Shown: positions 12,734 to 15,925 of the stretch, piece after piece
Numbering within the stretch: the first letter of the stretch is position 1
How the letters are laid out: each line of letters starts with the position of its first letter
Assembly (NCBI GenBank): GCA_032128875.1
Contig: JAVLKG010000001.1
Location: 256,001 to 320,000, forward strand
DNA from: Candidatus Melainabacteria bacterium 17Bon1m
GTDB lineage: Bacteria > Cyanobacteriota > Vampirovibrionia > Obscuribacterales > Obscuribacteraceae
DNA length: 64,000 nucleotides
Direction: 5' to 3'
The notes under the pieces: model-generated
Database searches by the model: none
Told to the model about the DNA's origin: nothing
Seen by the model: the letters and a program-made list of their open reading frames with translations, nothing else
Program-made: the position numbers and the translations under genes

Positions 12734-12837
12734 ATCCCCTCCAGAGGTTGTCGTCGCCTAATCATACTATTTGGTAAGTATTAAGGGGTATTGCATCCGC
12801 AAATCGAACTTCACTTTGCGAAGGAATTTAAAAAAGA

Positions 12838-13056
12838 CTATCTGTCTTTTGAAAGTGAGATTCTGATTCGCAGGTCTAGAGCACTTGCGGTTCTTACAAG
12901 CATCGGAAGTGAGTGTCCTTCATAGTCAGAATCCTCTAGTCGACTTATCACTGACTGGGTCGTACCTGTCAGGTCTGCAAGTCCTTTCTGACTTAATCCT
13001 GCTTCTTTTCGCGCCTCGTAAATCATCACTGCTATTTCAGAACTGAGGCGCTCATT
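12838..13056 (-). pseudogene. 5'-truncated XRE/HTH_3 regulator (HigA-like antitoxin remnant)
   Basis: NERLSSEIAVMIYEARKEAGLSQKGLADLTGTTQSVISRLEDSDYEGHSLPML; family-like sequence extends upstream of the first usable start codon and then meets a stop. Confidence 0.65.
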
Positions 13057-13143
13057 TGATTTAGTGGTTGTTTAGGTCTAGCAATGAGAGGTGGTCGGCC
13101 AGCCTTTCTGGTTGCCTGCAAACATTCGAGAGAGGTCGTGAAA

Positions 13144-13228
13144 TGGCGGAGATGGCATGGACTCGAACCTGCAACGCTTTCGCGCGCCTGTTTTCAAGAC
13201 AGGCTCCTTTCCAATTCGGATCATCTCC
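13144..13228 (-). tRNA. tRNA-Ser(TGA), divergent, CCA encoded
   Basis: GGAGATG/CATCTCC acceptor, CCTGT-CTTGAAA-ACAGG, long variable arm, GGTTCGAGTCC with bulged T-stem, G73. Confidence 0.88.
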
Positions 13229-13233
13229 GTAAT

Positions 13234-13306
13234 TGCCAACGACTGGAATCGAACCAGTTTCGTGCCGTCTTCAGCGGCTCGTGTTGACCACAATCACCAC
13301 ATTGGC
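13234..13306 (-). tRNA. tRNA-Phe(GAA), divergent, no CCA
   Basis: GCCAATG/CGTTGGC, GCCG-CTGAAGA-CGGC, ACTGG-TTCGATT-CCAGT. Confidence 0.85.
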
Positions 13307-13307
13307 A

Positions 13308-13381
13308 TGGCGCGTCGACCTCGATTCGAACGAGGACCAGCAACTTTGGAGGTTGCGCGGCTACCGTTACCTCATCGACGC
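13308..13381 (-). tRNA. tRNA-Trp(CCA), CCA encoded
   Basis: GCGTCGA/TCGACGC, GCAAC-CTCCAAA-GTTGC, CCTCG-TTCGAAT-CGAGG, G73. Confidence 0.9.
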
Positions 13382-13382
13382 A

Positions 13383-13458
13383 TGGAGCACACGAGCCGAT
13401 TTGCACGGCTGCGTAGCGGGGTTGCAATCCGCCGGCTTGCTGTCTTGCCTACGTGTGC
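13383..13458 (-). tRNA. tRNA-Cys(GCA), divergent, CCA encoded
   Basis: GCACACG/CGTGTGC, GCGGA-TTGCAAC-CCCGC, AGCCG-TGCAAAT-CGGCT, U73. Confidence 0.85.
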
Positions 13459-13459
13459 A

Positions 13460-13535
13460 TGGAGCCGTCAGCAGGAATTGAACCCGCAACCAATCGCTTA
13501 CAAGGCGATTGCTCTACCAATTGAGCTATAACGGC
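13460..13535 (-). tRNA. tRNA-Thr(TGT), CCA encoded
   Basis: GCCGTTA/TGACGGC, GCTC-AATTGGTA-GAGC, ATCGC-CTTGTAA-GCGAT, GCGGG-TTCAATT-CCTGC. Confidence 0.95.
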
Positions 13536-13588
13536 GTGTGTTGAACGTCAGATTGTTGAAACCTCGTGAGTTGGTTAGATAAAACAAT

Positions 13589-13660
13589 TGGAGGCAGTAG
13601 GAATCGAACCTACCTGGAGCTGGTTAAAAGCCAGATACATAGCCAATCTGCCATGCCTCC
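13589..13660 (-). tRNA. tRNA-Lys(TTT), no CCA
   Basis: GGAGGCA/TGCCTCC, CTGG-CTTTTAA-CCAG, GTAGG-TTCGATT-CCTAC. Confidence 0.88.
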
Positions 13661-13683
13661 GCAAAAGTTTCTGAAAAAAAATT

Positions 13684-13778
13684 GGGCGTGTGCAACACGC
13701 CCCCACGCTCTGGAAGAGCCGGCTGGAAGCCAGCGCTCCGGCCGATTTAGAAGCGGGCGAGCCGCCGGCGCTCCCAGG
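13684..13778. repeat. Cluster of REP-like elements (families 2 and 3) inside the tRNA array
   Basis: GGGCGTGTGCAACACGCCCCCAC and GCGAGCCGCCGGCGCTCCCAGG; same units at 32924-33029 and 62592-62671. Confidence 0.8.
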
Positions 13779-13783
13779 AAAAA

Positions 13784-13856
13784 AGCCCCTGCCAGGATTT
13801 GAACCTGGACCCTTCTGGTTCGTAGCCAGATGCTCAATCCGTTGAGCTACAGGGAC
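13784..13856 (-). tRNA. tRNA-Arg(ACG), no CCA
   Basis: GTCCCTG/CAGGGGC, GCTC-AACGGATT-GAGC, TCTGG-CTACGAA-CCAGA, CCAGG-TTCAAAT-CCTGG. Confidence 0.93.
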
Positions 13857-13917
13857 AATGCCGGACCTAAAGGCTCAGCTTTGGTCCGGGTTTCTCGGCG
13901 GCCGCCGTAGAAATGAT

Positions 13918-13988
13918 AGCCCACCATCGGATTCGAACCGATATCTCCGCCGTGGCGCGACGGGGTTCTGCCATTGAACCAGGTAGGC
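13918..13988 (-). tRNA. tRNA-Gly(GCC), divergent anticodon loop, no CCA
   Basis: GCCTACC/GGTGGGC, GTTC-AATGGCA-GAAC, CCGTC-GCGCCAC-GGCGG, ATCGG-TTCGAAT-CCGAT, U73. Confidence 0.85.
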
Positions 13989-13991
13989 GAA

Positions 13992-14062
13992 TTGCCACAG
14001 CAGGAGTCGCACCTACACCACTCGCTTATCAGGCGAGCGCTCTACTGTTGAGCTATGCAGCA
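13992..14062 (-). tRNA. tRNA-Ile(GAT), divergent, no CCA
   Basis: TGCTGCA/TGTGGCA, GCTC-AACAGTA-GAGC, CTCGC-CTGATAA-GCGAG, GTAGG-TGCGACT-CCTGC. Confidence 0.85.
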
Positions 14063-14066
14063 CTAA

Positions 14067-14138
14067 TGCCCGATGAAGGATTTGAACCTTCAACCCTCTC
14101 CTTGTAATGGAGTAGCTCTACCGTTGAGCTAACCGGGC
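14067..14138 (-). tRNA. tRNA-Val(TAC), no CCA
   Basis: GCCCGGT/ATCGGGC, GCTC-AACGGTA-GAGC, CTCC-ATTACAA-GGAG, GAAGG-TTCAAAT-CCTTC. Confidence 0.9.
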
Positions 14139-14141
14139 GAA

Positions 14142-14214
14142 TGGAGACTATCGGAATCGAACCGATGACCTTCTCGTTGCAGGCGAGTTGCTCTGCCGTC
14201 TGAGCTTAGTCCCC
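14142..14214 (-). tRNA. tRNA-Ala(TGC), divergent, no CCA
   Basis: GGGGACT/AGTCTCC with G3:U70 identity pair, CTCG-CCTGCAA-CGAG, ATCGG-TTCGATT-CCGAT. Confidence 0.9.
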
Positions 14215-14223
14215 ATGTTTTCT

Positions 14224-14238
14224 CGATTTTCAGGGTGC
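14224..14238 (-). promoter_or_regulatory. boxA-like antitermination motif
   Basis: GCACCCTGAAAATCG, 9 nt before the first tRNA; resembles the G(A/C)ACCTTGAAAA rrn boxA type. Confidence 0.45.
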
Positions 14239-14520
14239 GATGTTTCCGAAGTGAACAGATGAAAGTGCGAAGTGTTCAAAATGAGTATGGGTGAGTTCAA
14301 AAGTTATGCGACTAAATTTTTTCTGACACCTCCCTGCGCTAGAGCGAGCTAGGACAATGGCACCACTAATGGTGACACTGCAGATTAAGAAGCGAATTTA
14401 TTCACACGACGTTGATCGGTCAGCAAAGCTGCGATTGCGCGCTAACGCAAATCAATCAGCAAATGCTTGATCGAAGAATGTCTAGTTATCGGGATTCCCG
14501 TGAATAGAGAGCCTTAAAGA

Positions 14521-14548
14521 CAAAAATGCCTGGGCTCTTTACCCAGGC
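14521..14548 (-). terminator. Intrinsic terminator (attenuator) between leader ORF and tRNA array
   Basis: GCCTGGG-TAAAGAG-CCCAGGC-ATTTTTG. Confidence 0.85.
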
Positions 14549-14590
14549 TCTGCGGAGTTAGATACCAATCAATCTCATCGCATTACTGGG
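14542..14590 (-). promoter_or_regulatory. Antiterminator hairpin, mutually exclusive with the terminator
   Basis: CCCAG-taa-TGCG-atg-AGAT-tgattggt-ATCT-aactc-CGCA-gagc-CTGGG: three nested helices; 5' arm lies in the last leader codons, 3' arm is the terminator 5' strand. Confidence 0.75.
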
Positions 14591-14691
14591 ATTTTCACGC
14601 GCACGTTTGCCGTGCCGCCGCAAAACACTGGACGTCCGGAGTCGGCGCGCCATGTGCGTTTGGTGGTTGAGCAAATAATTGATTTATTCAT
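14575..14691 (-). CDS. Putative 38-aa attenuator leader peptide
   Basis: AAGGTG SD 6 nt before ATG; MNKSIICSTTKRTWRADSGRPVFCGGTANVRVKIPVMR*; stop codon inside the antiterminator. Confidence 0.75.
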   Translation of the reverse strand: MNKSIICSTTKRTWRADSGRPVFCGGTANVRVKIPVMR

Positions 14692-14759
14692 AGTCTGCAC
14701 CTTAGTGTCCTTTATGATCATTAGTGATCATAAAGTCGGCCCGAAGACCGACTAAATTC

Positions 14760-14788
14760 AACATACCACAACACCCCTGACGCCGCAA
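14760..14788 (-). promoter_or_regulatory. Sigma70-like promoter of the leader/tRNA operon
   Basis: TTGCGG-17 nt-TATGTT with extended -10 TG; predicted start near 14753 at a UUCG-capped hairpin. Confidence 0.6.
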
Positions 14789-14791
14789 GAA

Positions 14792-15925
14792 CTATTTTTG
14801 TTTCGTTCTTTCTAATAATGCGTTGTAGTCATCTTGCCACTCAGGCTTCTGAGTGTTTTGCTGTTTCGCTCGCTTATCTACCGCAATATTGTAGATTTTC
14901 AACGCTTCCACATCATCGCGTTTCAGTTCACAAAAGCGCGCCATGGTAATGAACATTCGCTCGCTCTCGTTTGTGCGTTTCAACAATTCGTTTTTGATTG
15001 CGTTAAACGCATCGTATTTCCTTTGTTTTAAAAGGGCGTAAGCCAGCGCAATTTGAACGTCAGTCAATCCGGCATTTTCGTCCGTTAGTTCTTTGATGTG
15101 TGCACTCGATTTTTGCGCATAATCTTCCGCCAGCGAATAGTGCTTAGAACTGTTTGCAATGAGAGCCAATCTGTAGAGCCCAAGCGCAGCACGCACATCA
15201 CCTACGGGCATTTGTTGTGCTTCGCTCGCCAGCTTGTCTAGCGACTTTCCGAATTCTTCTAATGTGTCAACGCTTACATTGGAAGATGGATCTGCTTCGG
15301 GATTTTCTTCGTTAAGAGAGGTGAGCGGATCGCCATACTTCAGTTGCTCGCCATCCGCGATTGACTTGAATTCATCAAGTTGTTTCAGCGCCGCATCGAC
15401 GCCGTCACAGTGTTTCTTGAGCTGCGCAGTGTAATCTTTTGGCACCGTGTTGTTTATAAGCGATTCAATAATCGCTTTGGTATCAGTACTCGTTCCACCT
15501 GCGGTGGCATTTTGATTCTCAATTTCCTTCTCGAAAAATTGCTTGAGCATTTGCGGGCTTCTCGCGTACAATTCCGCGGAGTTTTTCGCGTAGTTCGGAT
15601 CCATAATCAATTCGAGTTGCATTCTGATCAACATCTCTCGAATGATTCGCGCACTCTCATCCGGATGTCCCGCCTTCAACTGCGCAAGAGCATTTTGAGC
15701 TTGCATGGCAGGTGTTGCCGGCACAGATAATGTTGGTCCAGGCGTCGTTTGTTCCGGTGTCGTTTGTTCAGGTGTCGCCGGCTCAGCCGCTGTCGCAATC
15801 GATAAAGCAAACGAGCAATAGAGCAATCCGCAAATCAGAGCCGTCAGTGTGCGTTGTTTGAACCGCATGAATTCTCTCCCGAATGCACAGGGCATCAGGT
15901 AAGAATATAACAAACTCTTCGACAA
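14792..15925 (-). CDS. Secreted helical/TPR-like hypothetical protein
   Basis: Probable start MRFKQRTL (GGAG SD), signal peptide, PEQTT tandem repeat, TPR-like C-terminus. Confidence 0.75.
   Translation of the reverse strand: MSKSLLYSYLMPCAFGREFMRFKQRTLTALICGLLYCSFALSIATAAEPATPEQTTPEQTTPGPTLSVPATPAMQAQNALAQLKAGHPDESARIIREMLIRMQLELIMDPNYAKNSAELYARSPQMLKQFFEKEIENQNATAGGTSTDTKAIIESLINNTVPKDYTAQLKKHCDGVDAALKQLDEFKSIADGEQLKYGDPLTSLNEENPEADPSSNVSVDTLEEFGKSLDKLASEAQQMPVGDVRAALGLYRLALIANSSKHYSLAEDYAQKSSAHIKELTDENAGLTDVQIALAYALLKQRKYDAFNAIKNELLKRTNESERMFITMARFCELKRDDVEALKIYNIAVDKRAKQQNTQKPEWQDDYNALLERTKQK

What the first reader, a model, noticed from the sequence alone, without database searches (positions are those of the whole stretch)
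13144..14788. Candidate tRNA-pool surveillance operon: leader-peptide attenuator controlling a matching 11-tRNA backup array
Seen, in order on the minus strand: promoter (14760-14788), SD plus 38-codon ORF (14575-14691), overlapping antiterminator/terminator (14521-14590), about 300 nt of structured spacer with a boxA-like motif, then 11 tRNA genes whose amino acids are the ones that fill the leader. Established: his/trp-type attenuators use leader codons to sense one or a few aminoacyl-tRNAs, normally upstream of biosynthetic genes. A cryptic tRNA operon induced by translation stress is known in Anabaena PCC 7120, but there it is controlled by the protein repressor TrcR. Inference: the operon is silent while ribosomes reach the leader stop. 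Loss of any of the 11 tRNA species (anticodon nucleases, toxins, starvation) or drug-induced stalling would free the antiterminator and produce replacement tRNAs. I do not know of a described multi-tRNA attenuator controlling a tRNA array, but I cannot search to confirm novelty.
Basis: partly seen in the sequence, partly recalled or inferred. Interest (0 to 1): 0.95.

Follow-up and report, generated by a model that had tools for sequence, protein, structure and literature searches.

The report
Leader-peptide switch before spare tRNA genes
A tiny translated test gene with a switchable transcription stop sits in front of a cluster of spare tRNA genes in an uncultured freshwater bacterium and is written in the codons those tRNAs read, so the cluster is probably switched on when ribosomes falter, a control not yet described for tRNA genes.

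Summary
The core observation holds. On the minus strand lie a conserved extended -10 element, a 5' hairpin, an SD, a 38-codon ORF (14691-14575), an intrinsic terminator (14548-14528 plus T run) and 11 supernumerary tRNA genes (14215-13144). The genome is an Obscuribacteraceae (Melainabacteria) MAG. I verified the same promoter-leader-terminator-array module in 19 genomes of 6 genera. It was not found in 297 genomes of other families of the class.

An invariant CCCAG lies 5-11 nt before the always-UGA stop. It pairs with the terminator's 5' arm to close an antiterminator as stable as the terminator. A terminating ribosome would cover it.

Leader codons match the array. In this window 26 of 37 codons are read by array tRNAs (0.38 expected). 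All 11 array anticodons are represented. A relative with about 22 array tRNAs has 21 represented in 37 codons.

Not confirmed: the structured spacer, the boxA-like motif, and the first tRNA as Cys (it is Ala).

There are no expression data, so function is inferred. My literature searches found no description of such control of tRNA genes. Earlier notes of this scan report the same kind of device on other DNA, mostly phages. My reading is a new variant of ribosome-mediated attenuation.

The parts
14760..14768 (-). Extended -10 promoter element (TGgTATGTT). The predicted start of transcription is near 14753.
   Evidence: Conserved as TGnTAnnnT in g1, g4, g7, g47, g34 and g30. Sequence conservation among relatives begins abruptly here. 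It did not pass the tool's strict sigma-70 scan.
14783..14788 (-). -35-like TTGCGG, 17 nt upstream of the -10
   Evidence: Seen in the sequence. Present only in the nearest relatives, so it is probably dispensable.
14734..14753 (-). 8-bp hairpin at the 5' end of the transcript (AGTCGGTC-TTCG-GGCCGACT)
   Evidence: 89% of cells are paired across 17 sequences, and 4 of 8 pairs show changes on both sides.
14710..14735 (-). Perfect palindrome inserted between the 5' hairpin and the SD. It creates an extra in-frame ATG at 14721.
   Evidence: Present only in this genome and its closest relative L002. Role unknown.
14698..14703 (-). Shine-Dalgarno-like AAGGTG, 6 nt before the ATG
   Evidence: A GGAG/GGA-type motif lies at the same place in 17 of 17 leaders.
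14575..14691 (-). Leader ORF, 38 codons plus TGA (MNKSIICSTTKRTWRADSGRPVFCGGTANVRVKIPVMR)
   Evidence: An intact ORF of 33-42 codons occurs in 17 of 17 leaders, always ending in TGA, and indels keep the frame. 26 of 37 codons are read by array tRNAs, against 0.38 expected.
14586..14590 (-). CCCAG, the 5' strand of the antiterminator helix P1, inside the last codons of the leader
   Evidence: Near-invariant at the DNA level, and in a different reading frame in g30. It pairs with CUGGG with probability 0.81-1.00 in 15 of 15 truncated transcripts. The 5 core pairs form in 16-17 of 17 sequences.
14551..14582 (-). Nested hairpin P2 enclosed by P1. It contains the UGA stop codon.
   Evidence: The MFE of the CCCAG..CUGGG segment is the P1-closed structure in 16 of 17. 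There are compensatory GCGA/UCGC to GUGA/UCAC changes. The sequence differs in g34 and g30 but the fold is the same.
14516..14548 (-). Intrinsic terminator: GCCTGGG-TAAAGAG-CCCAGGC, then ATTTTTGTCTTT
   Evidence: All 8 pairs form in 17 of 17 sequences. Hairpin energy is -13.8 to -14.8 kcal/mol.
14216..14515 (-). Spacer between the terminator and the first tRNA. Its length varies among relatives: the first tRNA lies 147-334 nt after the start of the terminator stem.
   Evidence: It is not more structured than shuffles.
14226..14239 (-). Conserved motif CGCACCCTGAAAAT shortly before the array; function unknown
   Evidence: Seen by eye in relatives of five genera; no count made. It lies about 8 nt before tRNA-1 in g1 and about 85-115 nt before it in g4, g7 and g34.
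14141..14215 (-). tRNA-Ala(UGC), with C33. ARAGORN calls it Cys.
13784..14138 (-). tRNA-Val(UAC) 14138-14067, Ile(GAU) 14062-13992, Gly(GCC) 13988-13918, Arg(ACG) 13856-13784
13675..13790 (-). Dispersed repeat inserted between tRNA-Arg and tRNA-Lys. It includes a terminator-like hairpin at 13702-13684 followed by 8 T.
   Evidence: There are 169 hits on both strands genome-wide, about 85 loci.
13144..13660 (-). tRNA-Lys(UUU) 13660-13589, Thr(UGU) 13535-13460, Cys(GCA) 13458-13383, Trp(CCA) 13381-13308, Phe(GAA) 13307-13233, Ser(UGA) 13228-13144

Best explanation
This is a ribosome-dependent transcription attenuator that gates a supernumerary ('backup') tRNA array.

Shown in the sequence:
- A promoter with an extended -10 would start a transcript that carries a 5' hairpin, an SD and a 38-codon leader ORF.
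- The last codons of the ORF hold CCCAG. This pairs with CUGGG, the 5' arm of an intrinsic terminator 26 nt downstream of the stop.
- That pairing closes an antiterminator (P1 around a nested hairpin P2 that contains the UGA stop).

Inferred mechanism:
- If a ribosome translates the leader quickly and sits on the last codons or the UGA, it covers CCCAG and melts P2. The terminator then forms, and transcription stops before the tRNAs.
- If the ribosome is late, stalled anywhere in about the first 28 codons, or never starts, P1/P2 forms first. The terminator arm is sequestered, and RNA polymerase runs on into the array.
- The leader contains at least one codon for every tRNA in the array and is enriched in such codons. 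A shortage of any of these decoding capacities should therefore open the switch, whether it comes from tRNA cleavage, lack of charging or general ribosome inhibition. The new tRNAs should then close it again, which makes a negative feedback loop.
For: ARCHITECTURE
- Searches show the parts.
- The region 14500-14760 folds better than all 200 shuffles (z -4.07).

CONSERVATION
- Leader DNA was found in 11 of 12 other genomes of the genus.
- The terminator pattern occurs in 19 of 103 other genomes of the family and 0 of 297 genomes of other families of the class.
- I verified leader plus array in 19 genomes of 6 genera.
- Pattern hits elsewhere were never followed by tRNAs. This held for 0 of 8 viral hits, the four metagenome hits L031, L033, L034 and L037 and the BLAST-derived locus L059, and the four genome hits L069, L072, L084 and L085.

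TRANSLATION
- All 17 leaders have an SD and an ATG, and are 33-42 codons long.
- All 17 end in TGA, 5-11 nt after CCCRG and 26-31 nt before the terminator stem.
- Indels keep the frame.
- CCCAGG sits in another frame in g30, so it is constrained as RNA.

SWITCH
- Before the 3' arm is made, CUGGG pairs with CCCAG with probability 0.81-1.00 in 15 of 15 leaders.
- The antiterminator energy is -14.4 to -23.4 kcal/mol against -13.8 to -14.8 for the terminator. The unconstrained MFE of the segment is P1-closed in 16 of 17.
- With a ribosome at the stop, the terminator forms in 16 of 16.
- The terminator is paired in 17 of 17, and the P1 core in 16-17 of 17. The 5' hairpin and P2 show changes on both sides of pairs.

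CODON MATCH, THIS WINDOW
- 26 of 37 codons are read by array tRNAs, against 0.38 expected (binomial p 6e-5).
- The five other frames give 12-20 of 36-37.
- The chance of 26 or more is 1.75e-4 in 200,000 windows of real genes and 7e-4 in 12,757 small ORFs.
- Synonymous choice gives 26 of 31 against 20.6 expected (z 2.4).
- 11 of 11 array anticodons are represented, against a null mean of 7.2 (P 0.004).

CODON MATCH, OTHER LINEAGES
- Enrichment has p<0.01 in 16 of 17 pairs.
- g34, with about 22 array anticodons and an unalignable peptide, has 21 of 23 and 21 of 22 represented (P 0.0006, and 0 of 5000).
- g7 has Ile(UAU), Gly(UCC) and Arg(UCU) in its array and ATA, GGA and AGA in its leader.
- 2 of 720 permutations of arrays among 6 genera reach the observed match.

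BACKUP STATUS
- The genome has 68 tRNA genes. Every array anticodon is also encoded elsewhere, at only 56-77% identity.

PRECEDENT FOR THE PHYSIOLOGY
- The Anabaena L-array is silent and is induced 100-1000-fold by ribosome-targeting antibiotics (PMC8421152, abstract and section 19 read).
Against: - There is no evidence of transcription, of a 3' end at the terminator, or of read-through. The three RNA-labelled runs that hold the locus give uniform depth on contigs of up to 137 kb, so they look like DNA.
- At equilibrium the full-length naked leader favours the terminator in 14 of 16 leaders. Antitermination therefore has to be kinetic.
- P1 and the terminator are nearly invariant, so they give no covariation.
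- The matching is one-directional. 11 of 37 leader codons here have no array tRNA (AAT, AAC, ACC x2, GCC, GAC, TCC, GGA, CCA x2, ATG).
- Arrays that lack tRNAs keep the corresponding codons in the leader: G005 and G012 lack Ala and Val, G109 lacks Ala, Val and Ile, and G009 lacks Thr to Ser. L038 and L039 have AGA codons without Arg(UCU).
- The g30 leader is not significantly enriched (18 of 32, p 0.14), and 4 of its 17 anticodons are unrepresented.
- The pairs are related by descent. Only about 3-5 lineages are independent, so summed statistics overstate the case.
- The null uses this genome's codon usage for all lineages. Some tRNA calls come from relaxed ARAGORN settings with three rule-based corrections of mine.
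- In this genome a REP-like terminator hairpin (13702-13684) sits inside the array. It could uncouple the last six tRNAs from the leader.
- The conserved motif at 14239-14226 has unknown function. I cannot exclude that it is a second promoter.
Confidence: 0.6

Rival explanations
1. This is a general translation-competence sensor. The same attenuator responds to any slowing of leader translation (antibiotics, ribosome damage, starvation), as do the uORF attenuators of antibiotic-resistance genes. The codon match with the array would be a by-product or a minor refinement, not the sensed variable.
For: - Naked RNA folds into the antiterminator co-transcriptionally, so any failure to translate should turn the array on.
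- The Anabaena L-array responds to many ribosome inhibitors and stresses.
- Leaders retain codons whose tRNAs are not in the array.
- The g30 leader is not enriched.
- The peptide sequence is only weakly constrained: 21, 22 and 27 of 38 columns vary at codon positions 1, 2 and 3.
Against: - A pure rate sensor needs no particular codons. Yet array-read codons are 0.70 of the leader against 0.38 expected.
- Rare classes such as Trp, Cys and ATA are present exactly where the array has the tRNA.
- 21 of 22 anticodons are represented in 37 codons in g34, against 0 of 5000 null windows.
Confidence: 0.25
2. The leader and the array are independent units. The ORF plus terminator is a small stand-alone gene or sRNA, and the tRNAs are transcribed from their own promoter in the spacer, for example near the conserved CGCACCCTGAAAAT motif.
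For: - A spacer of 147-334 nt separates the terminator from the first tRNA.
- A motif of unknown function is conserved shortly before the array.
- At equilibrium the terminator is favoured.
Against: - The promoter-leader-terminator block stays attached to arrays of quite different content and in different genomic neighbourhoods in 6 genera.
- No sigma-70-like site is found in 12800-15000.
- The stop codon is always placed next to the antiterminator strand.
- The codon match with the array has no explanation under independence.
Confidence: 0.08
3. This is a sequence-specific arrest peptide, like ErmCL, TnaC or SecM. The nascent leader peptide stalls the ribosome in response to a particular small molecule or antibiotic, and codon identity is irrelevant.
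For: Within genus g1 parts of the peptide are conserved (KRTWRA, VFCGG, KIPVMR) and a Pro lies near the C-terminus.
Against: - The peptides of g34, g30 and g7 share no motif with g1 beyond a few residues.
- The C-terminal conservation is explained by the RNA strand CCCAG, which is in another frame in g30.
- All three codon positions vary about equally.
Confidence: 0.05

Closest known systems
Leader-peptide transcription attenuators of amino-acid operons (trpL, hisL, leuL, pheL, thrL and the multivalent ilv leaders); named from established knowledge, with PMC1183508 and PMC3082878 seen only as listing and abstract
   Same: A short translated leader, an intrinsic terminator, and an antiterminator that shares a strand with the terminator. 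The position of the ribosome decides which structure forms, and leader codons report the supply of charged tRNA.
   Different: - The regulated genes are tRNAs, not biosynthetic enzymes.
- There are no runs of one regulatory codon. The leader instead samples 11 (here) to 21 (g34) different anticodon classes.
- I found no anti-antiterminator (1:2 pairing), so absence of translation should give read-through rather than super-attenuation.
- The antiterminator strand lies next to the stop codon.
Ribosome-mediated attenuation of antibiotic-resistance genes (bmrCD, vmlR, msrD/mef, yxjB); seen as listings and abstracts
   Same: A uORF precedes a terminator, and ribosome stalling in the uORF frees an antiterminator. 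The output helps translation to survive the stress.
   Different: Those systems sense drug-bound ribosomes on specific peptide or codon contexts and control protein genes. Here the leader composition mirrors the tRNAs controlled, and the peptide is not conserved between genera.
Anabaena sp. PCC 7120 trn operon (an L-array) and its repressor TrcR (PMC8421152: abstract, section 19 and passages; PMC10272220: passages)
   Same: Supernumerary tRNAs, divergent from the housekeeping set and arranged in an array. The host belongs to the sister lineage of the cyanobacteria. That array is silent until translation is impaired, which is the behaviour predicted here. The g34 relatives carry a long array of about 25 genes of that type.
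   Different: Control in Anabaena is by an RHH repressor that binds direct repeats over the -10 and the start site. No such repeat is found in this window (0 matches with up to 1 mismatch). The authors state that TrcR is restricted to cyanobacteria. Here the sensor is cis-acting RNA plus a ribosome.
T-box riboswitches
   Same: Transcription attenuation that reads tRNA status.
   Different: A T-box binds uncharged tRNA directly, has no ORF, and controls aminoacyl-tRNA synthetase and amino-acid genes. No T-box or any other Rfam cis-regulator matches 12800-15000 at E up to 1, apart from chance-level hits on the tRNAs themselves.

Membership tests
Ribosome-dependent (leader-peptide) transcription attenuator | A short leader ORF with a ribosome-binding site upstream of the regulated genes | tested here: met
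   38 codons with an SD 6 nt before the ATG. An ORF of 33-42 codons is kept in 17 of 17 leaders of 6 genera. Translation itself was not observed.
Ribosome-dependent (leader-peptide) transcription attenuator | An intrinsic terminator between the leader and the regulated genes | tested here: met
   Stem at 14548-14528 plus a T run. It is paired in 17 of 17 sequences.
Ribosome-dependent (leader-peptide) transcription attenuator | A mutually exclusive antiterminator that shares a strand with the terminator | tested here: met
   CCCAG pairs with CUGGG with probability 0.81-1.00 in 15 of 15 leaders. Its energy is comparable to that of the terminator in 17 of 17. This is prediction only; the strands are invariant, so there is no covariation.
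Ribosome-dependent (leader-peptide) transcription attenuator | Ribosome position on the leader selects the structure | tested here: inconclusive
   The geometry fits. The stop codon lies 5-11 nt after CCCRG in 17 of 17, and the terminator forms in 16 of 16 when the footprint at the stop is masked. No functional test is possible with these tools.
Ribosome-dependent (leader-peptide) transcription attenuator | Regulatory codons cognate to the product of the regulated genes | tested here: met
   It is met in a new form. There are no codon runs, but 26 of 37 codons are read by the array tRNAs and 11 of 11 anticodons are represented.
Classical trp-type attenuator | An anti-antiterminator (1:2 pairing) that gives termination when the leader is not translated | tested here: not met
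   The naked truncated transcript still pairs CUGGG with CCCAG (P 0.81-1.00, 15 of 15).
Classical amino-acid operon attenuator | Controls amino-acid biosynthesis or transport genes | tested here: not met
   Eleven tRNA genes follow on the same strand. The next ORF on the strand after them is a small HTH_3 ORF at 13029-12838.
L-array / inducible supernumerary tRNA operon (Anabaena trn type) | A tandem array of tRNA genes that duplicate the housekeeping set | tested here: met
   11 tRNA genes lie within 1.07 kb. All their anticodons are also encoded elsewhere in the genome, at 56-77% identity. The g34 relatives have about 25 genes.
L-array / inducible supernumerary tRNA operon (Anabaena trn type) | TrcR-type direct repeats over the -10 and the start site | tested here: not met
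   The paper's repeat pattern has 0 matches in the window with up to 1 mismatch.
L-array / inducible supernumerary tRNA operon (Anabaena trn type) | Silent in normal growth and induced by translational stress | not testable with these tools
   No usable RNA data.
T-box riboswitch | A match to the T-box covariance model (specifier loop, T-box sequence) | tested here: not met
   No Rfam hit other than tRNA-related ones at E up to 1.

The most novel reading that the evidence does not exclude
The leader is a deliberately composed 'codon sampler': one test codon or more for each backup tRNA. The cell, or the mobile array itself, would then continuously assay the decoding capacity of each of those tRNA species and replace exactly the set that can be replaced. 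That would make a closed-loop tRNA homeostat, which would work as an innate counter-measure to anticodon nucleases and other tRNA-targeting toxins. Taken with this scan's unchecked notes of similar leaders before phage tRNA arrays, it would be a widespread and so far undescribed principle of tRNA gene regulation. In Obscuribacteraceae it would have arisen independently of the TrcR repressor used by cyanobacteria.
Probability: 0.4. Interest if true: 0.9.

Novelty: new variant of a known kind. Interest (0 to 1): 0.8.

Why it matters
Bacterial tRNA genes are usually described as growth-rate-controlled or constitutive. The one studied inducible tRNA array, in Anabaena, uses a protein repressor whose own signal is unknown.

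A cis-acting device that lets the ribosome itself report decoding trouble, and answers with more tRNA, would be a direct and mechanistically transparent feedback between translation and tRNA supply. It would explain how horizontally spread 'spare' tRNA arrays stay silent yet useful.

It would also give a testable model for resistance to tRNA-cleaving toxins and ribosome-targeting antibiotics in an uncultured sister lineage of the cyanobacteria.

Finally, it would provide a compact, portable sensor of multi-tRNA sufficiency for synthetic biology.

Tried and rejected
- EXPRESSION. One run search and one laying of runs X4-X6 and X17. X4-X6 are labelled RNA, but they cover the whole 3 kb at uniform depth on contigs of up to 137 kb, so they behave like DNA. 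X17 holds only short pieces that overlap tRNAs of a relative. No conclusion on transcription can be drawn.
- PROMOTER SCAN. 0 sites in 12800-15000. This neither supports the upstream promoter nor reveals an internal one.
- EQUILIBRIUM FOLDING of full-length leaders. It favours the terminator in 14 of 16, so it does not by itself show a switch. RNAalifold of the 16-sequence alignment returned only the 5' hairpin and the terminator.
- STRUCTURED SPACER AND boxA. Not supported.
- Rfam. No cis-regulatory family matched.
- TrcR-type repeats. None.
- VIRAL CONTIGS. 8 pattern hits, and 0 of 8 are followed by tRNAs. Hits outside the family in metagenomes and genomes are ordinary terminators or coding sequence.
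- OTHER tRNA ARRAYS OF THIS GENOME (C3, C4). I read their upstream regions by eye. I saw no leader-plus-terminator module of this kind, and the terminator pattern occurs once in the genome. I did not analyse them further.
- ARG(UCU) AS A TRACKING CHARACTER. All arrays that have it also have AGA in the leader (L015, L040, L041). However, L038 and L039 have AGA without the tRNA, so it is suggestive only.
- LEADER/ARRAY PAIRS LEFT OUT of the final tests.
  - L016/L025: the array has only six tRNAs; it scored 17 of 35 against 0.27 expected.
  - L030: the contig ends inside the array; 13 of 36 against 0.23 expected.
  - L029: no array on a 1.2-kb contig.
  - L068: nearly identical to L061.
  - Duplicate records of the same leaders.
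- SUPPLEMENTS. The supplementary files of the two Anabaena papers could not be seen. They hold the promoter maps and the TrcR alignment.

Full report
WHAT IS THERE

The window is G000:C1:256001-320000 of a 7.55-Mb assembly in 35 contigs. Records that hold the same conserved element are titled Candidatus Obscuribacterales, Obscuribacteraceae or Melainabacteria MAGs. The organism is therefore an uncultured member of the non-photosynthetic sister lineage of the cyanobacteria.

ARAGORN finds ten tRNA genes on the minus strand at 13233-14215. Rfam finds ten, including an eleventh gene at 13147-13228 (36.1 bits), but misses the Trp gene. With a relaxed threshold ARAGORN calls the eleventh gene Ser(UGA).

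ARAGORN calls the first gene Cys. It has the anticodon UGC in a 7-nt loop and a G3:U70 pair (read from the sequence). Its orthologue is called Ala(UGC) in many relatives.

The array is therefore Ala-Val-Ile-Gly-Arg-Lys-Thr-Cys-Trp-Phe-Ser. The genome has 68 tRNA genes by default ARAGORN. Every array anticodon is also encoded elsewhere, and the array copies are only 56-77% identical to those genes. The array is thus a divergent, redundant set.

THE LEADER

Upstream of the array, on the same strand, lie the following parts.
- An extended -10 element (TGgTATGTT, 14768-14760).
- An 8-bp hairpin at the predicted 5' end of the transcript (14753-14734).
- A palindrome specific to this genome and its nearest relative (14735-14710).
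- AAGGTG, 6 nt before an ATG.
- A 38-codon ORF (14691-14575, ending in TGA).
- After 26 nt, an intrinsic terminator (14548-14528, 8 bp with 6 GC, followed by ATTTTTGTCT).

The strict sigma-70 scan finds no promoter anywhere in 12800-15000. The region 14500-14760 folds better than all 200 shuffles (z -4.07).

The 305-nt spacer between the terminator and the first tRNA does not fold better than shuffles (z -0.51). A recalled boxA consensus has no match on that strand in the spacer.

CONSERVATION

The leader DNA is found in 11 of 12 other genomes of the genus, most strongly over the ORF and terminator.

The terminator pattern occurs in 19 of 103 other genomes of the family. It occurs in none of 297 genomes of the other families of the class.

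I looked at each hit. In 19 genomes of six genera the pattern is preceded by the leader ORF and followed by a tRNA array.

Hits elsewhere are never followed by tRNAs. This covers one family genome, four metagenome contigs, three further genome loci and 8 of 8 viral contigs.

Among species of the genus, alignable sequence begins abruptly at the -10 element, and the upstream neighbours differ. The promoter, leader, terminator and array are therefore inherited as one unit.

The arrays differ in content.
- 7 to 12 tRNAs in g1, g4, g7 and g47.
- 17 tRNAs in g30.
- About 25 tRNAs in g34, which is a long array of the kind called an L-array in PMC8421152.

IS THE ORF TRANSLATED, AND IS THERE A SWITCH?

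All 17 distinct leaders that I could pair with an array share these features.
- An SD-like motif and an ATG.
- 33-42 codons.
- A TGA stop.
- The stop ends 5-11 nt after a CCCAG/CCGGG motif.
- The stop ends 26-31 nt before the terminator stem.

Indels keep the frame.

CCCAG is almost invariant at the DNA level. In g30 it lies in a different reading frame. It is therefore constrained as RNA, not as peptide.

Folding of the transcript up to the terminator loop, before the 3' arm exists, pairs the 5' arm CUGGG with this CCCAG. The probability is 0.81-1.00 in 15 of 15 leaders, whether the RNA is naked or a ribosome is placed at codon 10, 20 or 26.

The resulting antiterminator is helix P1 around a nested hairpin P2 that contains the stop codon. 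It is the unconstrained MFE of that segment in 16 of 17 leaders. Its energy is -14.4 to -23.4 kcal/mol, against -13.8 to -14.8 for the terminator hairpin. P2 keeps its fold in g34 and g30 although its sequence differs. It shows compensatory changes within g1.

The terminator is paired in 17 of 17 sequences and the P1 core in 16-17 of 17. These strands do not vary, so they give no covariation.

With the footprint of a ribosome at the stop codon masked, the terminator forms in 16 of 16. At equilibrium the complete naked leader also prefers the terminator in 14 of 16. Read-through must therefore depend on the order of folding during transcription.

I found no upstream segment that sequesters CCCAG. 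Unlike trp, failure to translate at all should turn the array on.

CODON MATCH

I used strict wobble rules: G34 reads C/U, U34 reads A/G, I34 reads U/C/A, and C34 reads G.

In this window, 26 of the 37 leader codons after the start are read by the array's 11 anticodons. The genome's long ORFs give 0.38 expected (binomial p 6e-5).

Controls:
- The five other frames give 12-20 of 36-37.
- 200,000 windows of real genes reach 26 with frequency 1.75e-4.
- 12,757 small ORFs reach the same fraction with frequency 7e-4.
- None of 100,000 mononucleotide shuffles reaches it.

Most of the signal is at the amino-acid level: 31 of 37 residues, P 0.0046. The synonymous choice adds to it: 26 of 31 against 20.6 expected, z 2.4.

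All 11 array anticodons have a cognate codon in the leader, including Trp and Cys (null mean 7.2, P 0.004).

Across lineages:
- Own-array enrichment has p<0.01 in 16 of 17 pairs. The exception is g30, with 18 of 32 and p 0.14.
- Every array anticodon is represented in 13 of 17 pairs.
- The g34 leaders cannot be aligned with g1 as peptides. They represent 21 of 23 and 21 of 22 anticodons in 41 and 37 codons (P 0.0006, and 0 of 5000).
- The g7 array has Ile(UAU), Gly(UCC) and Arg(UCU), and its leader has ATA, GGA and AGA.
- When arrays are reassigned among one representative of each of six genera, 2 of 720 permutations match as well as the true assignment.

LIMITS OF THE MATCH

The match runs in one direction. 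Eleven codons of this leader have no array tRNA.

Arrays that lack Ala/Val (G005, G012), Ala/Val/Ile (G109) or the distal half (G009) keep the corresponding codons in their leaders. L038 and L039 have AGA without Arg(UCU).

The lineages are related, so perhaps three to five observations are independent.

I used one genome's codon usage for all lineages. I also relied on relaxed ARAGORN calls with three rule-based corrections: a mis-registered Val, a mis-registered Ala, and one aberrant call dropped (one search shows the basis).

The pairs left out of the final tests are listed under Tried and rejected.

MECHANISM

Shown in the sequence: the parts, their conservation, the geometry, the predicted alternative folds and the codon statistics.

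Inferred:
- A ribosome that reaches the last codons or the UGA in time covers CCCAG and opens P2, so that the terminator forms and the array stays silent.
- A ribosome that is late, stalled within roughly the first 28 codons or absent lets P1/P2 form first, and RNA polymerase continues into the tRNAs.
- Because the leader samples each array tRNA's codons, a shortage of any of them should induce the array, and the new tRNAs should shut it off again.

Whether the natural trigger is loss of particular tRNAs or general translational stress cannot be decided here. The latter is what induces the Anabaena array 100-1000-fold (PMC8421152, section 19).

No expression evidence could be obtained.

In this particular genome a dispersed REP-like hairpin with a T run (13702-13684, about 85 loci genome-wide) has been inserted between tRNA-Arg and tRNA-Lys. 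It might terminate part of the read-through.

COMPARISON WITH WHAT IS KNOWN

The device works like a leader-peptide attenuator. It meets that family's structural criteria. It differs in three ways:
- It lacks codon runs.
- It lacks an anti-antiterminator.
- It controls tRNA genes.

It resembles the uORF attenuators of antibiotic-resistance genes in its default-on logic.

It shares its cargo and its predicted physiology with the Anabaena trn operon. That operon, however, is controlled by the RHH repressor TrcR at promoter repeats. Neither paper's text contains leader, attenuat-, terminator or uORF, and the repeat pattern is absent here.

It is not a T-box.

Six full-text searches found no paper describing attenuation or a leader peptide in front of a tRNA array or tRNA gene cluster. 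'tRNA gene cluster' together with 'leader peptide' gave 0 papers. Of the 34 papers holding 'tRNA array' and 'attenuat-', the 15 listed are unrelated by their titles and abstracts.

Earlier notes of this scan report leader-peptide attenuators before tRNA arrays in at least 65 other genomes, mostly phages. None concerns this sequence or this lineage. These are unchecked AI notes and are not counted as evidence here. They do mean that this scan has seen the kind before on other DNA.

VERDICT

This is a real, conserved cis-regulatory module. It is most likely a ribosome-dependent attenuator that gates a backup tRNA array, with a leader composed to sample the array's codons.
- Confidence that it is an attenuator: about 0.85.
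- Confidence that codon matching is functional tRNA sensing: about 0.55.
- Confidence in the whole statement: 0.6.

It is a new variant of a known kind of mechanism, applied to a class of genes for which I found no published description.

Noticed in passing
window 13675-13790 (hairpin 13702-13684, minus strand): A dispersed REP-like palindromic repeat (GGGCGTGTTGCACACGCCC and variants). It gives 169 hits on both strands, about 85 loci, in the genome, and 79 of them have a T-rich tail. One copy is inserted between tRNA-Arg and tRNA-Lys, and assembly graphs of public runs branch there. A similar hairpin sits inside the C4 array.
   Followed up: partly
G000:C3:1007950-1010320 (locus L095): A second tRNA array is interleaved with protein genes. 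One ORF has an Acb2/Tad1 hairpin domain (PF24729, E 1e-14), a family of phage anti-defence sponges. Another is an RNA ligase (PF09414, E 1.4e-16). This looks like a phage-derived counter-defence and tRNA-repair island.
   Followed up: partly
G000:C4:285800-286804 (locus L096): A third tRNA array (Asp, His, Tyr, Leu, Gln and others) lies behind a good TTGACA-17-TATAGA promoter, a 5' hairpin and an Ala/Phe-rich ORF that runs into the first tRNA without a terminator. It is not the same kind of leader.
   Followed up: no
loci L040, L060, L061, L086 (arrays of relatives): Several array tRNAs are aberrant. Some have 8-nt or 6-nt anticodon loops, which ARAGORN reports as '???' (gtca, gcca, gt). One call is Phe(AAA). 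The Ile(UAU) genes are 90-94 nt long, with extra sequence after the anticodon.
   Followed up: no
window 14141-14215: The array tRNA-Ala(UGC) has C33 instead of the near-universal U33, here and in several relatives. Other relatives keep U33. This may matter for decoding or for nuclease recognition.
   Followed up: no
window 14710-14735: A perfect palindrome of about 26 nt (TTTATGATCA..TGATCATAAA) lies between the 5' hairpin and the SD. It is present only in this genome and its nearest relative and creates an extra in-frame ATG at 14721. It could be a protein-binding site or a small insertion.
   Followed up: no
window 14226-14239 and relatives: The motif CGCACCCTGAAAAT recurs between the terminator and the first tRNA in relatives of five genera (g1, g4, g7, g34; seen by eye), at variable distance from the tRNA. 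Its function is unknown: a processing site, a binding site or a promoter element.
   Followed up: no
window 12838-13029 (minus strand): A small ORF with an HTH_3 (XRE-type) domain lies directly downstream of the array on the same strand (PF01381, E 3.5e-8). It is not related to the RHH repressor TrcR.
   Followed up: no
runs X4-X6: Three runs labelled TRANSCRIPTOMIC RNA-Seq cover the locus at flat depth on contigs of up to 137 kb. They behave like genomic DNA.
   Followed up: no
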